UHGV virus genome: UHGV-0021965
From: a virus
Length of the DNA stretch: 47,493 nt
Strand: one strand, 5' to 3'
Of this stretch, positions 42,001-47,493 are shown one piece after another. Position numbers: made by a program. Numbering within the stretch: position 1 is the first letter of the stretch; each line of letters starts with the position of its first letter.

Positions 42001-45000
42001 TCTGGAAGCTGGATCGGCTTGGACGCTCACTCATACATCTCGTCGATTTACTGCGCTATTTCCGGGCTAATAATATTGAATTTGTCTCAATCACAGAGGG
42101 GATAAGAATCAGCACATCAATCGGCCGATTCGCATACACAATGCTGAGTGCTGCGGCTGAGATGGAAAGAGAAAATATCATTGAAAGAACGAGAGCAGGT
42201 TTAGCTGTGGCAAGGGCAAAGGGAAGAATAGGTGGGAGGCGTCCAAAGCTCACCCAGGAACAATGGGACCAGGCGGGCCGACTGATTGCGAACGGCGTGG
42301 ACAGGAAGCAGGTGGCGATCATCTACGATGTGGCTGTGTGCACGCTTTATAAAAAATTCCCCGTTTCAAAACCGGCTTAAATTTGCTCACACAGAGTTAC
42401 TGTAACAAAATTTACAAAACTCATAATTCGAAGCGACATAGAAACTTAGAAACGAAACGGCGAAGCTTTAAGCATTCATGACAGACTCTCTGTCTTGCGT
42501 GCATACCCAAATGAAACTACTGTATATAAAAACAGTATTTGAGGTATGCAACATGGAATTTATCAGGCCTGCAGAACTGCGAGAAATTATTGCTCTCCCG
42601 CTTTTCAGTGACTTAGTGCAGTGTGGTTTCCCAAGCCCTGCGGCTGATTACGTTGAACAGCGCATCGATCTCAATGAGTTACTTGTTGCTCACCCGAGCT
42701 CAACGTATTTCGTCAAAGCCGCGGGCGATTCAATGATCGAAGCCGGGATTAGCGACGGCGATCTGCTGGTGGTGGACAGCTCCAGGACTGCTGAGCATGG
42801 TGACATTGTCATCGCTGCGGTGGAAGGGGAGTTCACTGTTAAACGCCTGCAGCTGCGCCCGACCGTGCAACTCAACCCTATGAACAGCGCCTACAGCCCG
42901 ATTGTTGTTGGCAGCGAAGACACGCTGGACGTTTTCGGCGTCGTGACTTTCATCGTTAAATCTGCGAGCTGAATATGTTTGCTCTCTGTGATGTGAATTC
43001 GTTCTACGCATCATGCGAGACTGTATTCAGGCCGGACCTGAGAGGGCGGCCGGTTGTTGTTCTCTCAAATAATGATGGCTGTGTAATCGCACGCAGCGCA
43101 GAAGCAAAAGCGGTCGGAATCACTATGGGGGAGCCATTCTTCAAGCAAAAGGAGCTTTTCCGGCGCGCTGGCGTTGTTTGCTTCAGCAGCAATTACGAGC
43201 TTTACGCTGACATGTCGAACCGGGTAATGACGACGCTTGAGGAAATGAGCCCCCGCGTTGAAATTTACAGTATCGACGAAGCTTTTTGCGACCTGACAGG
43301 TGTTCGCAACTGCCGGGACCTGACTGAGTTCGGCAAAGAGATCCGCGCTACGGTTCTGAAGCGGACGCATCTGACGGTCGGGGTTGGCATTGCCCAGACG
43401 AAAACACTGGCGAAGCTGGCCAACCACGCCGCGAAGAAATGGCAGCGGCAAACGGGCGGGGTAGTGGACCTGTCCAATATCGATCGCCAGCGACGACTCC
43501 TTGCCCTGGTACCTGTAGAGGATGTGTGGGGCGTCGGTAGGCGCATCAGCAAGAAGCTAAACGCCATGGGCATAAAAACTGCCCTCGACCTTTCTGAACA
43601 AAGCACGTGGATTATTCGAAAGCACTTCAATGTCGTCCTGGAGCGAACGGTCCGGGAGCTGCGCGGCGAACCATGTCTTGATCTGGAGGAGTTTGCGCCG
43701 GCAAAGCAGGAAATCGTCTGCAGTCGGTCATTTGGCGAACGCGTTACTGAGTATGAGCAGATGCGCCAGGCTATCTGCAGCTATGCCGCCCGTGGTGCTG
43801 AAAAACTTCGGGGTGAGCATCAGTACTGCCGCTTTATCTCTGCGTTCGTGAAAACCTCTCCCTTTGCGCTTAACGAGCCGTATTACGGTAACAGTGCGTC
43901 CATGAAGCTTCTCACACCCACTCAGGATTCCCGCGACATTATCAACGCCGCGGTAAAGTGCCTGGACAAAATCTGGAAAGACGGTCACCGGTACCAGAAG
44001 GCAGGAATCATGCTTGGGGATTTTTTCAGCCAAGGCGTGGCACAGTTGAATCTTTTTGACGAAAACGCGCCGCGGGCTGGAAGCGAAAGGTTGATGGAAG
44101 TGCTCGATCATCTGAATGCTAAAGACGGGAAAGGAACACTCTACTTTGCCGGGCAAGGCATACAGCAGCATTGGCAGATGAAACGCGAGATGCTTTCACC
44201 ACGATACACCACACGTTACAAAGACTTACTGGTCGTTAGGTAAAGGCTTTAATTTTTGAAATCGCATTTCTTTCAAATGTGATTTTCATCTTGGATACAC
44301 AATATAGTGTTGTTAAGATGATGTATCTAAAAAAATAGTAATTCTTTTCGACGGACTGTGATAGTAATGAATGTAGTCGATTTTTTATCAAGTGACATTT
44401 GGCAAGGATTGAGTGTTTTATCCCCTATAGCCATTTCGTTATGTGCGATTCTATACTCTAAATTTCTTTTCAAAAGAGGTTTTCGAACTAAAAACTCTCG
44501 CTTTAAAGACACAAAAAACCTACCAAAAGATTTGTATGAAGGACAAAATACAACACTTTACGGCAAAGTTAGAGAAGAGGTTTTTCCAGGCCCACCAAAT
44601 TATGAGTCCATAAATGATGGGGATGAGCCGCAGTTCTACTGGATTCTTTATGTAAATGAACCTATTAAGCTGGCGGGACGAAGCATGGAGGATGATTCTC
44701 TTTATGAAAAAGGATCATCATGTATGTTCCAGTTATGTCTTACACGCGAAATTTATGATAAACGATTAGATATCCTTAATAAATATGTTAGTGTTGAAGG
44801 AGAGATTTTTTTAGGGCATACAGGCCACCATAAAACCAAAGCTCTTTTGAATGTAAGCACTATAAAAATTATTAAATAATTAGCATGGTAGTCTAGCTTT
44901 TTAAACTCTTTGGATTAGTAATTTTCCCTTATTTGATGTTGTATTAATTCAACACCTTGGTTGTTTGGATTTCCCACGGCACGCGACACTGCGTGCCAGA

Positions 45001-47493
45001 TAAATTTGTCTGCTGGCACTGCTCCGTCGGCTGCTATCTCTTCCGCTTCCTTCCCACCTATATCCTGGCGCATCCACTCTCGTGCTGCTTCTGGTGACAA
45101 AACCAGTGGCCGTCGATCGTGAATGTCAACCAGACCTTTATCAGCTGCAGACGTCACTATCAGAAAACCTTCAGCTTCATCGCCTCGCTCAAACGGAGTG
45201 CTGCCGATGGCGGCCATGAATATGGGCTGGCCATCGGCCCGATGGATGAAGTAGGGCTGTTTCTTGTCGCCTTCCTTCTTCCACTCGAACCATCCATCGG
45301 CGAAGCATATTGCCCGGCCATGCTGCCACAGAGGTTTAAACATTCTGCTGGTGGCCGCCGTCTCGACGCGAGCGTTAATCAGTGGTGGCTTATCCCACCA
45401 CCCAGGCGCATATGACCACAGCACAGGATCGAGGTGCAACTGCTCGTCTCGTTCACTCAGCAGCAGAACTTTGGTACCGGGCGCGACATTGTACCGGCCA
45501 ATCGGTTCCGGGTCGTATGCAATGTCGCGATCGGCTTCGTCGGCCAAGAAAGCCAAATATTCTTCACGGGTTTGGGCTTGTGCAAAACGTCCACACATAG
45601 AAACCTCCAGTCGGATGTCAGACTGAAAGTATAGGGTAGGGAGAAAAGTAGCGCGCGCTGGTTAAGTCTTACAAACGGATTCGTGGCGATTATCCTGATG
45701 AGAAAGGGAGGCGTAAAGCGATACGTTGTGAAATTGGAAGGAGCTACGCAAAGTTTCAACAATGCTAAAAGAAAAAACTAAACCCGGTAGGGGAGCCGGG
45801 TTCGCTGTGATGACAGTAAAGAAATTTATTCATTTGTAAGCCACATATCAGACTCTTCAAACATATCCTCCAGCATACGGTTCAACTTTTCACGATCACT
45901 TTTGCTAGCATCACTATTCAATCCGTTAGCCTGCATAGGTTTTACCTTCACTTCAGCATCAGGGAATATGTGATGAACTCGCCTCGTCAACTCAGCCAAA
46001 ATGATTTCTTTGGCACCATCCAAGCCTTGGACATTTCTCTTATCGTAAATCAACTCAACGAACATAAAAGTCTCCTAAATCTCTATGAGAAGAGGTTGTA
46101 TTTTTACTGTAAATATATACAGTGTCAAGGCGAGTGAGACCATTTATAGGATGGGATTTTATCGTCAGATTGAACAGAAATTACTGGGGGTAATTCCCCG
46201 GTTATTCCCCAATGTTTCCCCACAAGAAATTTACCAATAAAAAAACCAGCCATAAGAGGCTGGTTTTCAATGTGTTTTTGGTCGGCACGAGAGGATTTGA
46301 ACCTCCGACCCCCGACACCCCATGATAGCTAATCGAGGTTATAATATTTTTTCAATGCAGAGGAGAGAAGCTCAGTAATTGCCGCCACGCCAATTCCTGC
46401 TGTGCCAGTCGCTGCTTTCGAAATCATGCCTGAAAACCACTGTCCAACTGCGGGACCATAATTTTTGCTACGAGGTGCAATTGGGCCATCAGAATTTATC
46501 GCCACTTCTAGATCGGTTAGATCTTCGTTTGAAACCCCTTCAGTTTCAAGGTGTCGCCTTAAAGCTGCAATGTCATTTTTTATAACATTGTTAGTGATGT
46601 TAAAAGAACTGCTATCACCCAAGTTAATAACAGTATGATCACCAAATATTGCACTTTCAAAAATGGATGCGGCATCTACATTCTTAAGTTTATCTATCAT
46701 TGTATTTGCTCCTGGTATAGCGGATGCATATTCGGTTAATTCTAAAACAAAATCTAGAAGTCTCGATCTTACTTGCGTCAGAATGTTAGTGAAATTATGA
46801 AGTGCTATCTCTTTGTAACATCGAGTTATTTCATAATCCGTTACTACATTTTTGCAATATTTAAAATATGCGAAATCCAAAGGTATAGGCTGTTGAATAC
46901 TATGATTATCACCAGCATTAACTACTAGCTGTTCAATTTGACTGATTGAAAGCCTTAAAGATGCAGTAGTTGCATCCTCATAATCTTCATCATTAAGATA
47001 CGAAATCGGAAGCGGGTAAGCTGTATATAAGCGCACACCATTATTTGCGTCTGCCAGTATACGAGCAGGTACGGTGCGATAGTCAGGAAGAGGCATATTA
47101 TCAGGATAACCATTGAGTTCATGGTTCACCCATGCGGCAAGCTCTTTTTTCCCGATAGCATACATCAACACTTTTGTTTTAAGGAGTGCGTTGGTGGTTC
47201 CCTCATCTCCTGAACTGAGTATCGTGATAATCTCTTCTAGTTGGTTCACAAGAATACTCCTCATAAAAAAAGCCCGCATCAGCGGGCTTCTTATCACTCT
47301 GGAGCCGCGGCTCCTTTGCGTATCCTTTTTTGTCCCCTCACCGTCTGGTCGGTGTCCTGCTGAGACTACTAACTTCCTGTTATTGCAAGTGATGTCCTAT
47401 CACTGTCCAATCATGATTGGTGGAGCTGGCGGGAGTTGAACCCGCGTCCGAAATTTCTACATCCTCGGTACTACATGCTTAGTTTGTCTTTAC

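What the first reader, a model, noticed from the sequence alone, without database searches (positions are those of the whole stretch)
44915..46124. YedK-type abasic-site peptidase and LexA-boxed dinI complete an SOS cargo arm
An SRAP gene (MCGRFA with the Cys2 nucleophile) and dinI with its own LexA box (46105-46124) sit beside umuDC on the same arm. DinI and SRAP-type proteins normally restrain or complement translesion synthesis, so the arm looks like a self-contained DNA-damage-tolerance module. A separate inverted repeat (CAGTC-N8-GACTG) lies just upstream of the SRAP start and is not a LexA site.
Basis: partly seen in the sequence, partly recalled or inferred. Interest (0 to 1): 0.45.

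Follow-up and report, generated by a model that had tools for sequence, protein, structure and literature searches.

The report
Prophage umuDC–YedK–DinI cargo arm
The far end of a lambda-like prophage carries an error-prone DNA polymerase (umuDC), a RecA modulator (dinI) and an abasic-site-capping enzyme (YedK/SRAP); the combination is real but common and already described, and only two of the three genes are wired to the SOS switch.

Summary
That includes a YedK-type SRAP gene, a dinI gene behind a near-consensus LexA box, a LexA-boxed umuDC operon nearby, and the CAGTC-N8-GACTG repeat.

The arm is phage DNA. It lies inside a 47.2-kb lambdoid prophage bounded by a 31-nt ssrA repeat, and isolated phages carry parts of the same arm.

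It is not one SOS module. It is a mosaic of separate cassettes:
- umuDC and dinI each have a LexA operator (18 of 20 consensus positions).
- The SRAP gene has none, and neither did any of 131 relatives with enough upstream sequence.
- SRAP instead has a conserved sigma-S-type -10 element (CTATACTT). E. coli yedK is strongly RpoS-dependent in the literature.

The inverted repeat is the inner half of a conserved 10-bp hairpin (-11.9 kcal/mol). The hairpin pairs the promoter's -10 and start region with the Shine-Dalgarno sequence. My inference is that it silences read-through transcripts, so SRAP would be insulated from SOS-induced dinI transcription.

The SRAP–umuDC pairing and LexA-boxed prophage dinI genes are both published. 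The arm is therefore a new member of a known kind. The promoter-embedded hairpin is the only possibly new element.

The parts
42518..42537 (+). LexA operator of umuDC, TACTGTATATAAAAACAGTA
   Evidence: It matches 18 of 20 consensus positions. The core, read on the SRAP strand as CTGTTTTTATATACAG, is almost invariant upstream of umuD in related loci.
42553..42972 (+). umuD, 139 aa
   Evidence: Pfam Peptidase_S24 at 2.6e-30. It matches the solved UmuD 8gmt_B at E 9e-71 over residues 1-137, with the LVQCGFPSP cleavage region, GDSM and FTVKRL retained. It scores 162 bits against the NCBIfam PolV autoproteolytic subunit model, cut-off 110.
42975..44243 (+). umuC, 422 aa, Y-family polymerase subunit of Pol V
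   Evidence: Pfam IMS, IMS_C, DUF4113 and IMS_HHH. It scores 872 bits against the NCBIfam UmuC subfamily model, cut-off 431, over the full length.
44367..44879 (+). DUF4431 gene (170 aa from ATG 44367; GTG 44358 is also possible). A separate low-GC insertion between umuC and SRAP.
   Evidence: Pfam DUF4431 at 6.5e-10. GC is 38% in this kilobase. It occurs at this position in only 3 of 162 related loci. It has no PHROG, PADLOC or NCBIfam match.
44915..45598 (-). SRAP/YedK-type abasic-site processing protein, 227 aa, convergent with umuC
   Evidence: Pfam SRAP at 7.7e-51. NCBIfam PRK09951 at 468 bits, cut-off 349. Gap-free alignment to YedK structures at E 1e-136, with C2, N75, E105 and H160 kept. 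It belongs to phrog_1599.
45603..45630 (-). Hairpin ACUUUCAGUC-UGACAUCC-GACUGGAGGU. Its 3' arm contains the Shine-Dalgarno GGAGGU (45603-45608).
   Evidence: Free energy -11.9 kcal/mol, z -3.3, 0 of 200 shuffles as stable. Across 98 distinct homologous upstream regions 88.8% of cells pair, against 84.9% in shuffles (0 of 500 reach it) and 28-57% when the partner is slid. There are 23 cells with changes on both sides.
45627..45634 (-). CTATACTT, a sigma-S-type extended -10 element of the SRAP promoter. It overlaps the first four bases of the hairpin's 5' arm.
   Evidence: CTAYRCTT occurs in 88 of 100 distinct upstream regions, 29-36 nt before the ATG, and sequence conservation begins abruptly at the C. 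It fits the sigma-38 -10 consensus quoted in PMC2759082. E. coli yedK has an RpoS-dependence ratio of 43 (PMC2907692).
45780..45803 (-). Intrinsic terminator after dinI
   Evidence: It was found by the terminator scan. Free energy is -13.1 kcal/mol, z -3.0, and it is followed by AGUUUUUUCU.
45826..46065 (-). dinI homologue, 79 aa
   Evidence: Pfam DinI at 2.6e-21. It belongs to phrog_189, 'RecA filament binding protein DinI'. It matches 1ghh at E 5.8e-7 with the acidic C-terminal helix kept. It scores below the NCBIfam equivalog cut-off for chromosomal DinI, 39 against 111 bits.
46100..46128 (-). dinI promoter TTGACA-17-AAAAAT, with the LexA operator (46105-46124) filling the spacer
   Evidence: The promoter scan gives 10 of 12. 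The operator matches 18 of 20. Promoter and operator are conserved in every related locus that has dinI at this position.
46269..46315 (-). 47-nt 3' part of tRNA-Pro(GGG), a fossil proL attachment-site half that marks the old outer end of the arm
   Evidence: It is identical to the 3' part of intact proL genes that precede the same dinI/SRAP arm in L013, L093, L141 and L081. ARAGORN finds no tRNA here. The assignment to proL rests on my own knowledge of the E. coli tRNA sequence.
47418..47448 (-). ssrA 3' end, the right-hand att repeat of the prophage. Its partner is at 207-237.
   Evidence: Rfam tmRNA at 72 bits. Direct repeat D5. The phage-side flank 47266-47417 is 90% identical to the attP flank of phage LLS.

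Best explanation
The region is the accessory ('moron') arm at the att-proximal end of a lambdoid prophage integrated in ssrA. It is a mosaic of independently transcribed cassettes. They share a DNA-damage-tolerance theme but follow two different regulatory logics.

1. umuDC sits behind a LexA operator, so it should be SOS-induced. UmuD would be cut to UmuD' on RecA filaments to give error-prone Pol V.
2. dinI sits behind a strong sigma-70 promoter whose spacer is a LexA operator, and it is closed by its own terminator. It should be SOS-induced. DinI binds RecA filaments and damps RecA-mediated cleavage, which here could affect both UmuD and the phage's own CI-type S24 repressor.
3. The yedK-type SRAP gene has no LexA site. 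It is driven by a sigma-S-type promoter (CTATACTT, no -35), so it should be expressed in the lysogen under general stress or in stationary phase. Its product caps abasic sites in single-stranded DNA through Cys2, protecting them from breakage and from mutagenic bypass.
4. The 5' arm overlaps the -10 and start region, and the 3' arm is the Shine-Dalgarno sequence. I infer that transcripts starting at the gene's own promoter lack the 5' arm and can be translated. Read-through transcripts from dinI or, in relatives, from proL would fold back and hide the ribosome-binding site. This is the same logic as IS10/IS50 protection from outside promoters.

Shown here: the gene identities, catalytic residues, operators, terminator, att boundaries, recurrence of the arm, and conservation of the motif and the stem. 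Inferred: sigma-S use by this copy (about 0.65), the start-site position, and the fold-back function (about 0.4).
For: - Boundaries: the 31-nt ssrA repeat is at 207-237 and 47418-47448, and the integrase is at 1130-2299.
- Phage type: the structural genes are 91-95% identical to mEp237, HK225 and N15.
- Cargo in isolated phages: PHB10 has umuDC, then SRAP, then int. Eeyore has an invertase, DinI, a UmuD-like gene and int.
- Identities.
- Operators: three sites score 17-18 of 20 and the next best in the window scores 13 of 20. Nothing better than 10 of 20 lies upstream of SRAP. No perfect box occurs within 250 nt upstream of SRAP in 131 relatives.
- Published SOS behaviour: the dinI homologues of the Gifsy prophages are LexA-boxed and induced about 5- to 23-fold (PMC3121763, PMC8072944).
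- dinI is a separable cassette: alignment shows a clean insertion of about 470 bp between the proL/terminator block and the SRAP upstream block.
- Recurrence: a convergent umuC is present in 27 of 71 species genomes and 66 of 78 viral contigs. The gap between the genes ranges from an overlap to 4.4 kb.
- Promoter: CTAYRCTT occurs in 88 of 100 distinct upstream regions at a fixed place while the flanks cannot be aligned. A Leclercia-type subgroup has CTATACTTAA, which I recall as the extended sigma-S consensus (Weber et al. 2005).
- Published RpoS dependence: yedK has a ratio of 43 in EDL933 (PMC2907692) and rises on entry to stationary phase in the Sakai strain (PMC2241611).
- Hairpin. The Shine-Dalgarno sequence is predicted about 0% unpaired when the 5' arm is present. 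It is about 50% unpaired when the RNA starts 7 nt after the -10 element.
- Loop length varies among relatives, from roughly 3 to 8 nt, with pairing kept. This argues for a nucleic-acid stem rather than a dimeric protein site.
Against: - No transcription start site is known for any yedK-family gene. Reg-Seq simply placed the E. coli one 45 bp upstream of the gene (supplement of PMC7567609).
- If the real start lies upstream of 45630, the hairpin sits in the native mRNA and the fold-back model fails.
- The outer six pairs of the stem cannot be tested by covariation. Both sides are nearly invariant for other reasons (the -10 element and the Shine-Dalgarno sequence).
- The covariation statistics are inflated by relatedness of the sequences. 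The structure was also derived from one of the sequences (caveats stated).
- An 81-nt fold of the region is not unusually stable (z -1.05).
- The Leclercia-type relatives lack the hairpin, so it is not essential.
- RpoS dependence was measured for E. coli copies, not for this phage copy.
- Reg-Seq reports a repressor-type footprint over the equivalent E. coli region and names TreR from mass spectrometry. A protein could therefore act there.
- Some read-through past the dinI terminator is possible.
Confidence: 0.7

Rival explanations
1. One reading: the arm is one SOS-induced module. SRAP would be co-induced with dinI and umuDC after DNA damage, by read-through from the LexA-controlled dinI promoter or by a cryptic LexA site.
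For: dinI and SRAP lie on the same strand, 227 bp apart. The SRAP family was named for its neighbourhood with SOS genes (PMC3765255). SRAP's convergent neighbour carries a LexA box downstream in 75 of 78 viral contigs.
Against: There is no LexA-like site upstream of SRAP, the best match being 10 of 20, and none in 131 relatives. A -13.1 kcal/mol terminator with a U-run follows dinI. Most relatives have no dinI upstream at all. Any read-through RNA would have its Shine-Dalgarno sequence fully paired. yedK did not appear in the main text of a Salmonella SOS-regulon survey when searched (PMC8072944).
Confidence: 0.12
2. The hairpin is part of the native SRAP 5' UTR, with transcription starting upstream of the CTATACTT motif. 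It would act as a translational throttle or RNA thermometer, with U-rich anti-SD pairing that includes G-U pairs.
For: The stem hides GGAGGU behind CUUUC with two G-U pairs, which resembles fourU-type thermometers (my own knowledge). Pairing is conserved, with compensatory changes. E. coli YedK protein abundance is very low, 0.176 ppm (PMC9841429).
Against: In Atlantibacter (L081) only about 45 nt separate the proL terminator from the ATG. That leaves no room for another promoter. Conservation starts exactly at the C of CTATACTT and fits a sigma-S -10 element. No Rfam family matches the region.
Confidence: 0.2
3. The inverted repeat is the operator of a dimeric repressor that sits over the SRAP promoter and start site.
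For: Reg-Seq assigns E. coli yedK a single repressor-type site. It runs from -14 to +27 of a presumed start placed 45 bp before the gene, which is about 59 to 18 nt before the ATG by my conversion. Mass spectrometry named TreR (PMC7567609 and its supplement).
Against: The spacing between the arms differs among relatives, for example 8, 5, 4 and 6 nt, while complementarity is kept. Arm sequences change in a compensatory way rather than being conserved. E. coli K-12 itself lacks the inner repeat (L039). The Reg-Seq footprint could equally reflect the RNA stem or the weak -10 element.
Confidence: 0.1
4. The arm is host chromosome next to a prophage, not phage cargo.
For: The SRAP protein is 88-90% identical to chromosomal E. 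coli YedK, and the umuD operator is the sequence I recall for E. coli umuDC. A tRNA-Pro fragment lies at 46269-46315, which could be mistaken for a prophage end.
Against: The arm lies between the two ssrA att repeats. Phage-like attP flank and an AbiTii gene lie outside it. Isolated phage genomes carry umuDC and SRAP next to int. There are 497 relatives on IMG/VR viral contigs. The same arrangement of tRNA fragment plus AbiTii recurs in other prophages.
Confidence: 0.02

Closest known systems
E. coli YedK (SRAP family, PF02586; structures 2icu, 6kcq, 6nua, 8d2m)
   Same: It aligns without gaps at about 88-90% identity, with Cys2, Asn75, Glu105 and His160 kept. It passes the NCBIfam YedK subfamily cut-off. 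It has the same conserved upstream CTATxCT motif.
   Different: It is carried on a prophage arm, convergent with umuDC. It has a 5-residue longer C-terminus. The upstream hairpin is much stronger than in E. coli K-12 yedK, where the inner repeat is absent.
SRAP–UmuC/UmuD gene neighbourhood and SRAP in temperate phages (Aravind, Anand and Iyer 2013, PMC3765255)
   Same: SRAP is a neighbour of the umuD-umuC pair and sits inside a prophage. Both situations are explicitly described there.
   Different: In this enterobacterial lineage SRAP is convergent with umuDC, not in the same operon, and lacks a LexA box. The paper's suggestion that phage SRAP acts as a switch for lysis has no support here.
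LexA-controlled dinI homologues of the Gifsy-1, -2 and -3 prophages (PMC3121763, PMC8072944)
   Same: It is a prophage-borne DinI-family gene with a LexA box in its promoter, preceded by a terminator. The Gifsy genes are experimentally SOS-induced.
   Different: In the Gifsy phages dinI heads a dinI-antirepressor-irsA operon located after the replication genes. Here dinI is monocistronic, ends at its own terminator and lies at the att-proximal end. The phage has a cleavable CI-type repressor (HTH plus S24), so no antirepressor is needed.
Escherichia phage PHB10 (MK524177), an E. coli 210205630 prophage, and Salmonella phage Oslo
   Same: The order is tail fibre, then LexA-boxed umuDC, then variable cargo, then convergent SRAP, then att/int.
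   Different: The cargo between umuC and SRAP differs: cold-shock genes in PHB10 and DUF4431 here. There is no dinI in PHB10. The attachment sites differ.
IS10/IS50 protection from external promoters ('fold-back inhibition'; Davis, Simons and Kleckner 1985; Krebs and Reznikoff 1986; cited from memory)
   Same: The architecture matches: the gene's own promoter lies inside the 5' arm of a stem whose 3' arm is the ribosome-binding site. Only outside transcripts can form the stem.
   Different: There is no sequence relationship, and the gene is cargo rather than a transposase. The start site is not mapped here, so the resemblance is functional and inferred.

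Membership tests
SRAP / YedK (PF02586) | Full-length SRAP domain | tested here: met
   Pfam residues 1-211 match profile positions 1-214 of 214, E 7.7e-51. NCBIfam PRK09951 scores 468 bits against a cut-off of 349.
SRAP / YedK (PF02586) | N-terminal Cys2 nucleophile plus Asn75, Glu105 and His160 (YedK numbering) | tested here: met
   The gap-free alignment to 6kcq/2icu shows M-C-G-R-F at the start, LINAR, GWFEWK and VDIHDRRP at the same positions. The residue roles come from published YedK structures (my own knowledge; references listed in PMC8357350).
SRAP / YedK (PF02586) | Forms a covalent thiazolidine crosslink with abasic sites in single-stranded DNA | not testable with these tools
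   This needs a biochemical assay.
DinI family (PF06183) | DinI domain with an acidic C-terminal helix | tested here: met
   Pfam E 2.6e-21. The alignment to 1ghh covers residues 17-79, with EKLNRMLEDMFEESDMW aligned to the DinI C-terminal helix.
DinI family (PF06183) | Equivalog of chromosomal E. coli DinI | tested here: not met
   NCBIfam PRK10597 scores 39 bits against a cut-off of 111. It is a phage-type DinI homologue (phrog_189), not the chromosomal orthologue.
LexA (SOS) regulon | dinI: LexA box in the promoter | tested here: met
   The box matches 18 of 20 consensus positions and lies between the -35 and -10 elements. It is conserved in relatives.
LexA (SOS) regulon | umuDC: LexA box in the promoter | tested here: met
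   The box matches 18 of 20 and ends 16 nt upstream of the umuD ATG. It is nearly invariant in relatives.
LexA (SOS) regulon | SRAP: LexA box in the promoter | tested here: not met
   The best match in 45599-45825 is 10 of 20 with a poor CTG/CAG core. There are 0 perfect boxes in the 250 nt upstream of SRAP in 131 relatives.
LexA (SOS) regulon | Induction by DNA damage that depends on LexA cleavage | not testable with these tools
   This is shown only for the Gifsy dinI homologues and chromosomal umuDC in the literature (PMC3121763, PMC8072944).
Pol V (UmuD'2C) | UmuD with a Cys-Gly cleavage site and a Ser/Lys dyad; full-length UmuC | tested here: met
   The alignment to 8gmt_B keeps [13 protein letters not shown] and the lysine in FTVKRL. 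UmuC scores 872 bits over positions 1-422 of 422.
Sigma-S (RpoS)-dependent promoter | Extended -10 element CTAYRCTT with C at -13, and no requirement for a -35 | tested here: met
   CTATACTT lies at 45634-45627. The motif is present in 88 of 100 distinct upstream regions, with no conserved sequence upstream of it across genera. The consensus is as quoted in PMC2759082.
Sigma-S (RpoS)-dependent promoter | Expression depends on rpoS | not testable with these tools
   This is shown for E. coli EDL933 yedK, ratio 43, among the 100 most RpoS-dependent genes (PMC2907692). It has not been tested for this phage copy.
Fold-back protection from read-through (IS10/IS50 type) | A stem that pairs the ribosome-binding site with sequence upstream of the gene's own start site | tested here: inconclusive
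   The stem and Shine-Dalgarno occlusion are predicted and conserved. The start site is not mapped, so whether the native RNA lacks the 5' arm is inferred only from the position of the -10 element.

The most novel reading that the evidence does not exclude
yedK-family genes, and especially their prophage-borne copies, may carry a portable self-insulating expression unit. It would consist of a sigma-S-type -10 element embedded in the 5' arm of a hairpin whose 3' arm is the Shine-Dalgarno sequence. Only transcripts from the gene's own promoter would then be translated. Read-through from whatever lies upstream (a tRNA gene, or an SOS-induced dinI) would be silenced. This would deliberately uncouple abasic-site capping from the SOS-induced mutagenic polymerase encoded next to it.
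Probability: 0.35. Interest if true: 0.5.

Novelty: new member of a known kind. Interest (0 to 1): 0.3.

Why it matters
Temperate phages that carry Pol V, DinI and a YedK-type protein can change how a lysogen survives and mutates under DNA damage, including damage from antibiotics.

The useful correction here is that the three functions are not co-regulated. The mutagenic polymerase and the RecA modulator answer to LexA. The abasic-site shield appears to answer to the general stress sigma factor and may be actively insulated from SOS read-through.

That gives a concrete, testable picture of when each activity is present. It also warns against reading 'SOS response-associated' in the family name as 'SOS-regulated'. 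The arm itself is common and already described, so its presence here is not surprising.

Tried and rejected
- Cryptic LexA site upstream of SRAP: none found.
- The hairpin as an intrinsic terminator: the scan flagged it. However, the U-rich tail is not conserved. Many relatives have GGAGGTGACCATG after the stem. Rejected.
- A known RNA family: nothing at Rfam gathering scores, and nothing near 45600 at E up to 1.
- The sigma-70 promoter candidate at 45717-45689: it lies in a block that exists only in dinI-containing relatives and inside an antisense mini-ORF. It is not a general SRAP promoter.
- A Gifsy-type dinI-antirepressor operon: my first recollection placed it at the prophage end. The paper places it after the replication genes (PMC3121763). 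This phage instead has a cleavable CI-type repressor. The third LexA site, at 16066, lies in a methylase gene, not before a dinI gene.
- Published start sites for yedK: one paper was not held, one had no supplements held, and one supplement had no entry. Reg-Seq used an arbitrary start.
- My first coordinates for the tRNA-Pro fragment (46283-46330) were wrong. The correct range is 46269-46315.
- An 81-nt fold of the region was not significant (z -1.05). Only the local 28-nt stem is.
- The large protein-database, structure-prediction and fold-search tools were not used. The proteins already match solved structures or curated families.

Full report
**Observation**

- The ORF at 44915-45598 on the minus strand encodes a 227-aa protein beginning MCGRFAQ.
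  - It matches Pfam SRAP over the whole domain, E 7.7e-51.
  - It passes the NCBIfam YedK subfamily cut-off, 468 against 349 bits.
  - It aligns without gaps to the E. coli YedK sequences of solved structures 6kcq, 2icu and 6nua, E about 1e-136.
  - Counting along that alignment, Cys2, Asn75, Glu105 and His160 are all kept.
- The ORF at 45826-46065 (minus) is a 79-aa DinI-family protein.
  - It matches Pfam DinI at 2.6e-21 and phrog_189.
  - It aligns with the solved E. coli DinI 1ghh, including the acidic C-terminal helix.
  - It does not reach the NCBIfam equivalog cut-off for chromosomal DinI, 39 against 111 bits. It is a phage-type homologue.
- The sequence TACTGTAAATATATACAGTG is at 46105-46124, exactly as stated. 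It occupies the 17-nt spacer of a TTGACA/AAAAAT promoter.
- umuD (42553-42972) and umuC (42975-44243) are intact, and TACTGTATATAAAAACAGTA precedes them.
- The window has six perfect CTGT-N8-ACAG matches against 0.52 expected.
  - Scored against the 20-mer consensus, three sites reach 17-18 of 20.
  - Nothing else in the window exceeds 13 of 20.
- The CAGTC-N8-GACTG repeat is at 45608-45625.

**Is the arm phage or host?**

- The window is a 47.2-kb lambdoid prophage integrated into the tmRNA gene.
  - The ssrA 3' end at 47418-47493 is recognised by Rfam.
  - Its last 31 nt recur at 207-237 (family D5).
  - A tyrosine integrase lies at 1130-2299 and a CI-type repressor (HTH plus S24 peptidase) at 6646-7305.
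  - The head and tail genes are 91-95% identical to phages mEp237, HK225 and N15.
  - The flank just inside the right-hand repeat matches the attP flank of phage LLS.
- The damage-tolerance arm (42.5-46.1 kb) lies well inside these boundaries, between the tail-fibre/invertase region and the attachment site.
- Isolated phages carry the same layout.
  - PHB10 has tail fibre, umuDC, variable cargo, a convergent SRAP gene and int.
  - Eeyore has an invertase, DinI, a UmuD-like gene and int.
  - Oslo has umuDC after the tail fibre.
- The exact SRAP protein is found on an ENA metagenome contig of 48.1 kb with the same gene order.

**How common is the arm?**

- Pattern scans found 357 relatives in one-genome-per-species bacterial contigs and 497 in IMG/VR viral contigs. 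I fetched 160 of them.
- A full-length umuC lies within 6 kb downstream of SRAP, on the opposite strand, in two sets:
  - 27 of 71 species genomes;
  - 66 of 78 viral contigs.
- The space between the two stop codons ranges from a small overlap to 4.4 kb. It is a slot for extra cargo.
  - Here the slot holds a low-GC DUF4431 gene, seen at this place in only 3 of 162 loci.
- dinI upstream of SRAP is much rarer: 4 of 76 species genomes and 9 of 34 viral contigs with enough upstream sequence.
  - In all but one of these 13 loci a perfect CTGT-N8-ACAG box lies in the expected place.
- Alignment of upstream regions shows dinI, with its promoter, operator and terminator, as a clean insertion of about 470 bp.
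  - It sits between a proL/terminator block and the SRAP upstream block.
- The arm is therefore a mosaic, not a unit.

**Regulation**

- umuDC and dinI have textbook LexA operators.
- Published work shows that the dinI homologues of the Gifsy prophages, with comparable boxes, are LexA-controlled. They are induced about 5- to 23-fold by DNA damage (PMC3121763, PMC8072944).
- The SRAP gene differs.
  - The best match to the LexA consensus anywhere between it and dinI is 10 of 20.
  - None of 131 relatives has a perfect box in the 250 nt upstream.
  - dinI ends at a -13.1 kcal/mol stem followed by a U-run.
- What is conserved upstream of SRAP is the octamer CTATACTT, 29-36 nt before the ATG.
  - It is present as CTAYRCTT in 88 of 100 distinct upstream sequences, from Enterobacter, Citrobacter, Klebsiella, Leclercia, Buttiauxella and others.
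  - Conservation begins abruptly at the C.
- This fits the sigma-38 -10 consensus, for which a -35 element is dispensable (as quoted in PMC2759082 from Weber et al. 2005).
  - A Leclercia-type subgroup even has CTATACTTAA, which I recall as the extended consensus.
- Independently, E. coli EDL933 yedK is among the 100 most RpoS-dependent genes, ratio 43 (PMC2907692).
  - It also rises at the transition to stationary phase in the Sakai strain (PMC2241611).
- I therefore assign the SRAP gene to a sigma-S-type promoter, probability about 0.65 for this copy. I do not assign it to the SOS regulon.

**The inverted repeat**

  - Its 3' arm contains the Shine-Dalgarno GGAGGU.
  - Its 5' arm starts inside the -10 hexamer.
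- The 28-nt stem-loop has -11.9 kcal/mol, z -3.3, and no shuffle out of 200 is as stable.
- In an alignment of 98 distinct homologous upstream regions, MAFFT put the gaps in the loop. The pair counts are as follows:
  - 88.8% of cells pair, against 84.9% after shuffling partners (0 of 500 shuffles reach it).
  - 28-57% pair when the partner is slid by one to three columns.
  - 23 cells have changes on both sides, against 6.7 expected.
- Examples of compensatory change:
  - A-U becomes U-A at the seventh pair in two separate groups.
  - One of those groups, among the Pseudescherichia-type loci, includes an A·A intermediate.
  - UC/GA becomes CA/UG in a Kosakonia locus.
- The loop differs in length among relatives, from roughly 3 to 8 nt, while pairing persists. 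This speaks for a nucleic-acid stem rather than a dimeric protein operator.
- The median stem energy over the 98 sequences is -8.7 kcal/mol.
- Caveats:
  - The outer six pairs are invariant on both sides for other reasons.
  - The sequences are related to one another.
  - The structure was read off one of them.
  - A Leclercia-type subgroup lacks the stem.

**What the stem would do**

- If the -10 element is CTATACTT, transcription should begin 6-9 nt downstream, inside or just past the 5' arm. The gene's own mRNA could then not form the stem.
- Partition-function folding gives about 0 probability that the Shine-Dalgarno sequence is unpaired in RNAs that contain the 5' arm. It gives about 0.5 in RNAs that start 7 nt after the -10 element.
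- The simplest reading is that the stem silences read-through transcripts from upstream genes and leaves promoter-proximal transcripts translatable.
  - Here the upstream gene is the SOS-induced dinI. In relatives it is the proL tRNA gene.
  - This is the logic known from IS10 and IS50 (my own knowledge).
- I give this reading about 0.4. It depends on an unmapped start site.
- Reg-Seq placed the E. coli yedK start arbitrarily 45 bp before the gene. It reports one repressor-type footprint covering roughly 59 to 18 nt before the ATG, with TreR named by mass spectrometry (PMC7567609 and its supplement).
  - That footprint covers the homologous region.
  - It is compatible with an inhibitory element there, whether RNA or protein.

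**How the arm most likely works**

- In the lysogen, LexA keeps umuDC and dinI off.
- The SRAP gene is expressed from its own stress promoter. Its product caps abasic sites in single-stranded DNA.
  - The mechanism is known from YedK and HMCES work (references listed in PMC8357350).
- On DNA damage, LexA cleavage turns on dinI and umuDC.
- DinI binds RecA filaments and slows RecA-mediated cleavage (established for E. coli DinI and UmuD; my own knowledge).
  - In this phage that could delay both Pol V activation and cleavage of the phage's own CI-type repressor.
- Pol V then allows bypass of the remaining lesions.
- The functional interplay is inferred from the known activities. None of it was tested here.

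**Comparison with what is known**

- The SRAP family was named in 2013 precisely because its genes neighbour umuDC, imuB-dnaE2 and dinB. The same paper notes SRAP genes in temperate phages and proteobacterial prophages (PMC3765255).
- LexA-boxed prophage dinI genes are published (PMC3121763, PMC8072944).
- Phage records already annotate umuDC and SRAP.
- The arm is a new member of a known kind.
- Points I did not find described in the papers I searched:
  - the consistent absence of LexA boxes at enterobacterial SRAP genes;
  - their conserved sigma-S-type -10 element;
  - the promoter-embedded hairpin that occludes the Shine-Dalgarno sequence.

**Limits**

- No expression data exist for this element.
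- The start site, sigma-S use, DinI targets and SRAP activity of this copy are all inferred.
- The relatives examined are the closest 160 of about 850, so the counts describe that sample.

Noticed in passing
46194-46315: Fossil attachment site inside the prophage. It comprises the last 47 nt of tRNA-Pro(GGG) at 46269-46315 (-), a strong terminator at 46241-46268 (-17.1 kcal/mol) and three GGGGAA repeats 11 nt apart (46194, 46205 and 46216, read as ttcccc on the + strand). In relatives L013, L093, L141 and L081 an intact proL gene precedes the same arm. The arm therefore once ended at a proL attP, and an AbiTii plus ssrA-att/int module was joined on later.
   Followed up: partly
16066-16085: A third LexA-type site, TACTGTAAATATAAACAGTG, matches 17 of 20 consensus positions and is 20 of 21 identical to the dinI site with its flank. 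It lies inside codons 4-9 of an N6/N4 DNA methyltransferase gene (16058-17110). I saw no convincing promoter around it. A TTGACA on the minus strand at 16093-16098 has only a poor -10 partner. Its target gene and role are unknown.
   Followed up: partly
45698-45781 (+): A 27-aa antisense mini-ORF (MRKGGVKRYVVKLEGATQSFNNAKRKN) lies between SRAP and dinI. The N-terminal motif VKRxVxKLEGATQ is kept in 33 related loci, but the C-termini are unrelated. It looks like the stub of a divergent gene cut at a recombination joint, or a conserved DNA block about 110-170 nt upstream of SRAP.
   Followed up: partly
44367-44879 (+): A DUF4431 protein gene with a hydrophobic N-terminus sits in a 38% GC stretch between umuC and SRAP. 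It is present at this position in only 3 of 162 related loci. It has no PHROG, PADLOC or NCBIfam match.
   Followed up: no
46329-47297 (-) and 251-1084 (-): An AbiTii abortive-infection-type gene (Pfam and PADLOC) and a 277-aa phrog_7259 gene of unknown function flank the ssrA att core on the circular phage map. Both are low in GC (38-39%). They are probably defence or lysogenic-conversion cargo.
   Followed up: no
39835-42380: A Hin/Pin-type invertase (41823-42380) lies next to a tail-fibre gene (39835-40986, +) and an oppositely oriented tail-fibre C-terminal ORF (40952-41695, -). This suggests an invertible host-range switch directly upstream of the umuDC operator.
   Followed up: no
L004 6682-7238; L091 2668-2985: In relatives without a full umuDC, the LexA-boxed operon convergent with SRAP encodes a 79-aa protein plus a 105-106-aa UmuD-like stub. 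In other relatives a 105-aa UmuD-like protein precedes umuC. Many relatives also have a second LexA box about 490 nt beyond the umuD box.
   Followed up: partly
L166 2501-3341 (Gifsy-2, NC_010393 43494-44334): An unannotated stretch after sseI at the right end of Salmonella Gifsy-2 matches part of the SRAP gene and the dinI region at 81% identity. It appears to be a decayed remnant of the same arm.
   Followed up: no
L055, L058, L059, L063, L074 (Leclercia-type loci), about 22-32 nt before the SRAP ATG: These relatives have CTATACTTAA upstream of SRAP and essentially no hairpin (about -2 kcal/mol). I recall CTATACTTAA as the extended sigma-S -10 consensus. They form a natural comparison group for testing what the stem does.
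   Followed up: partly
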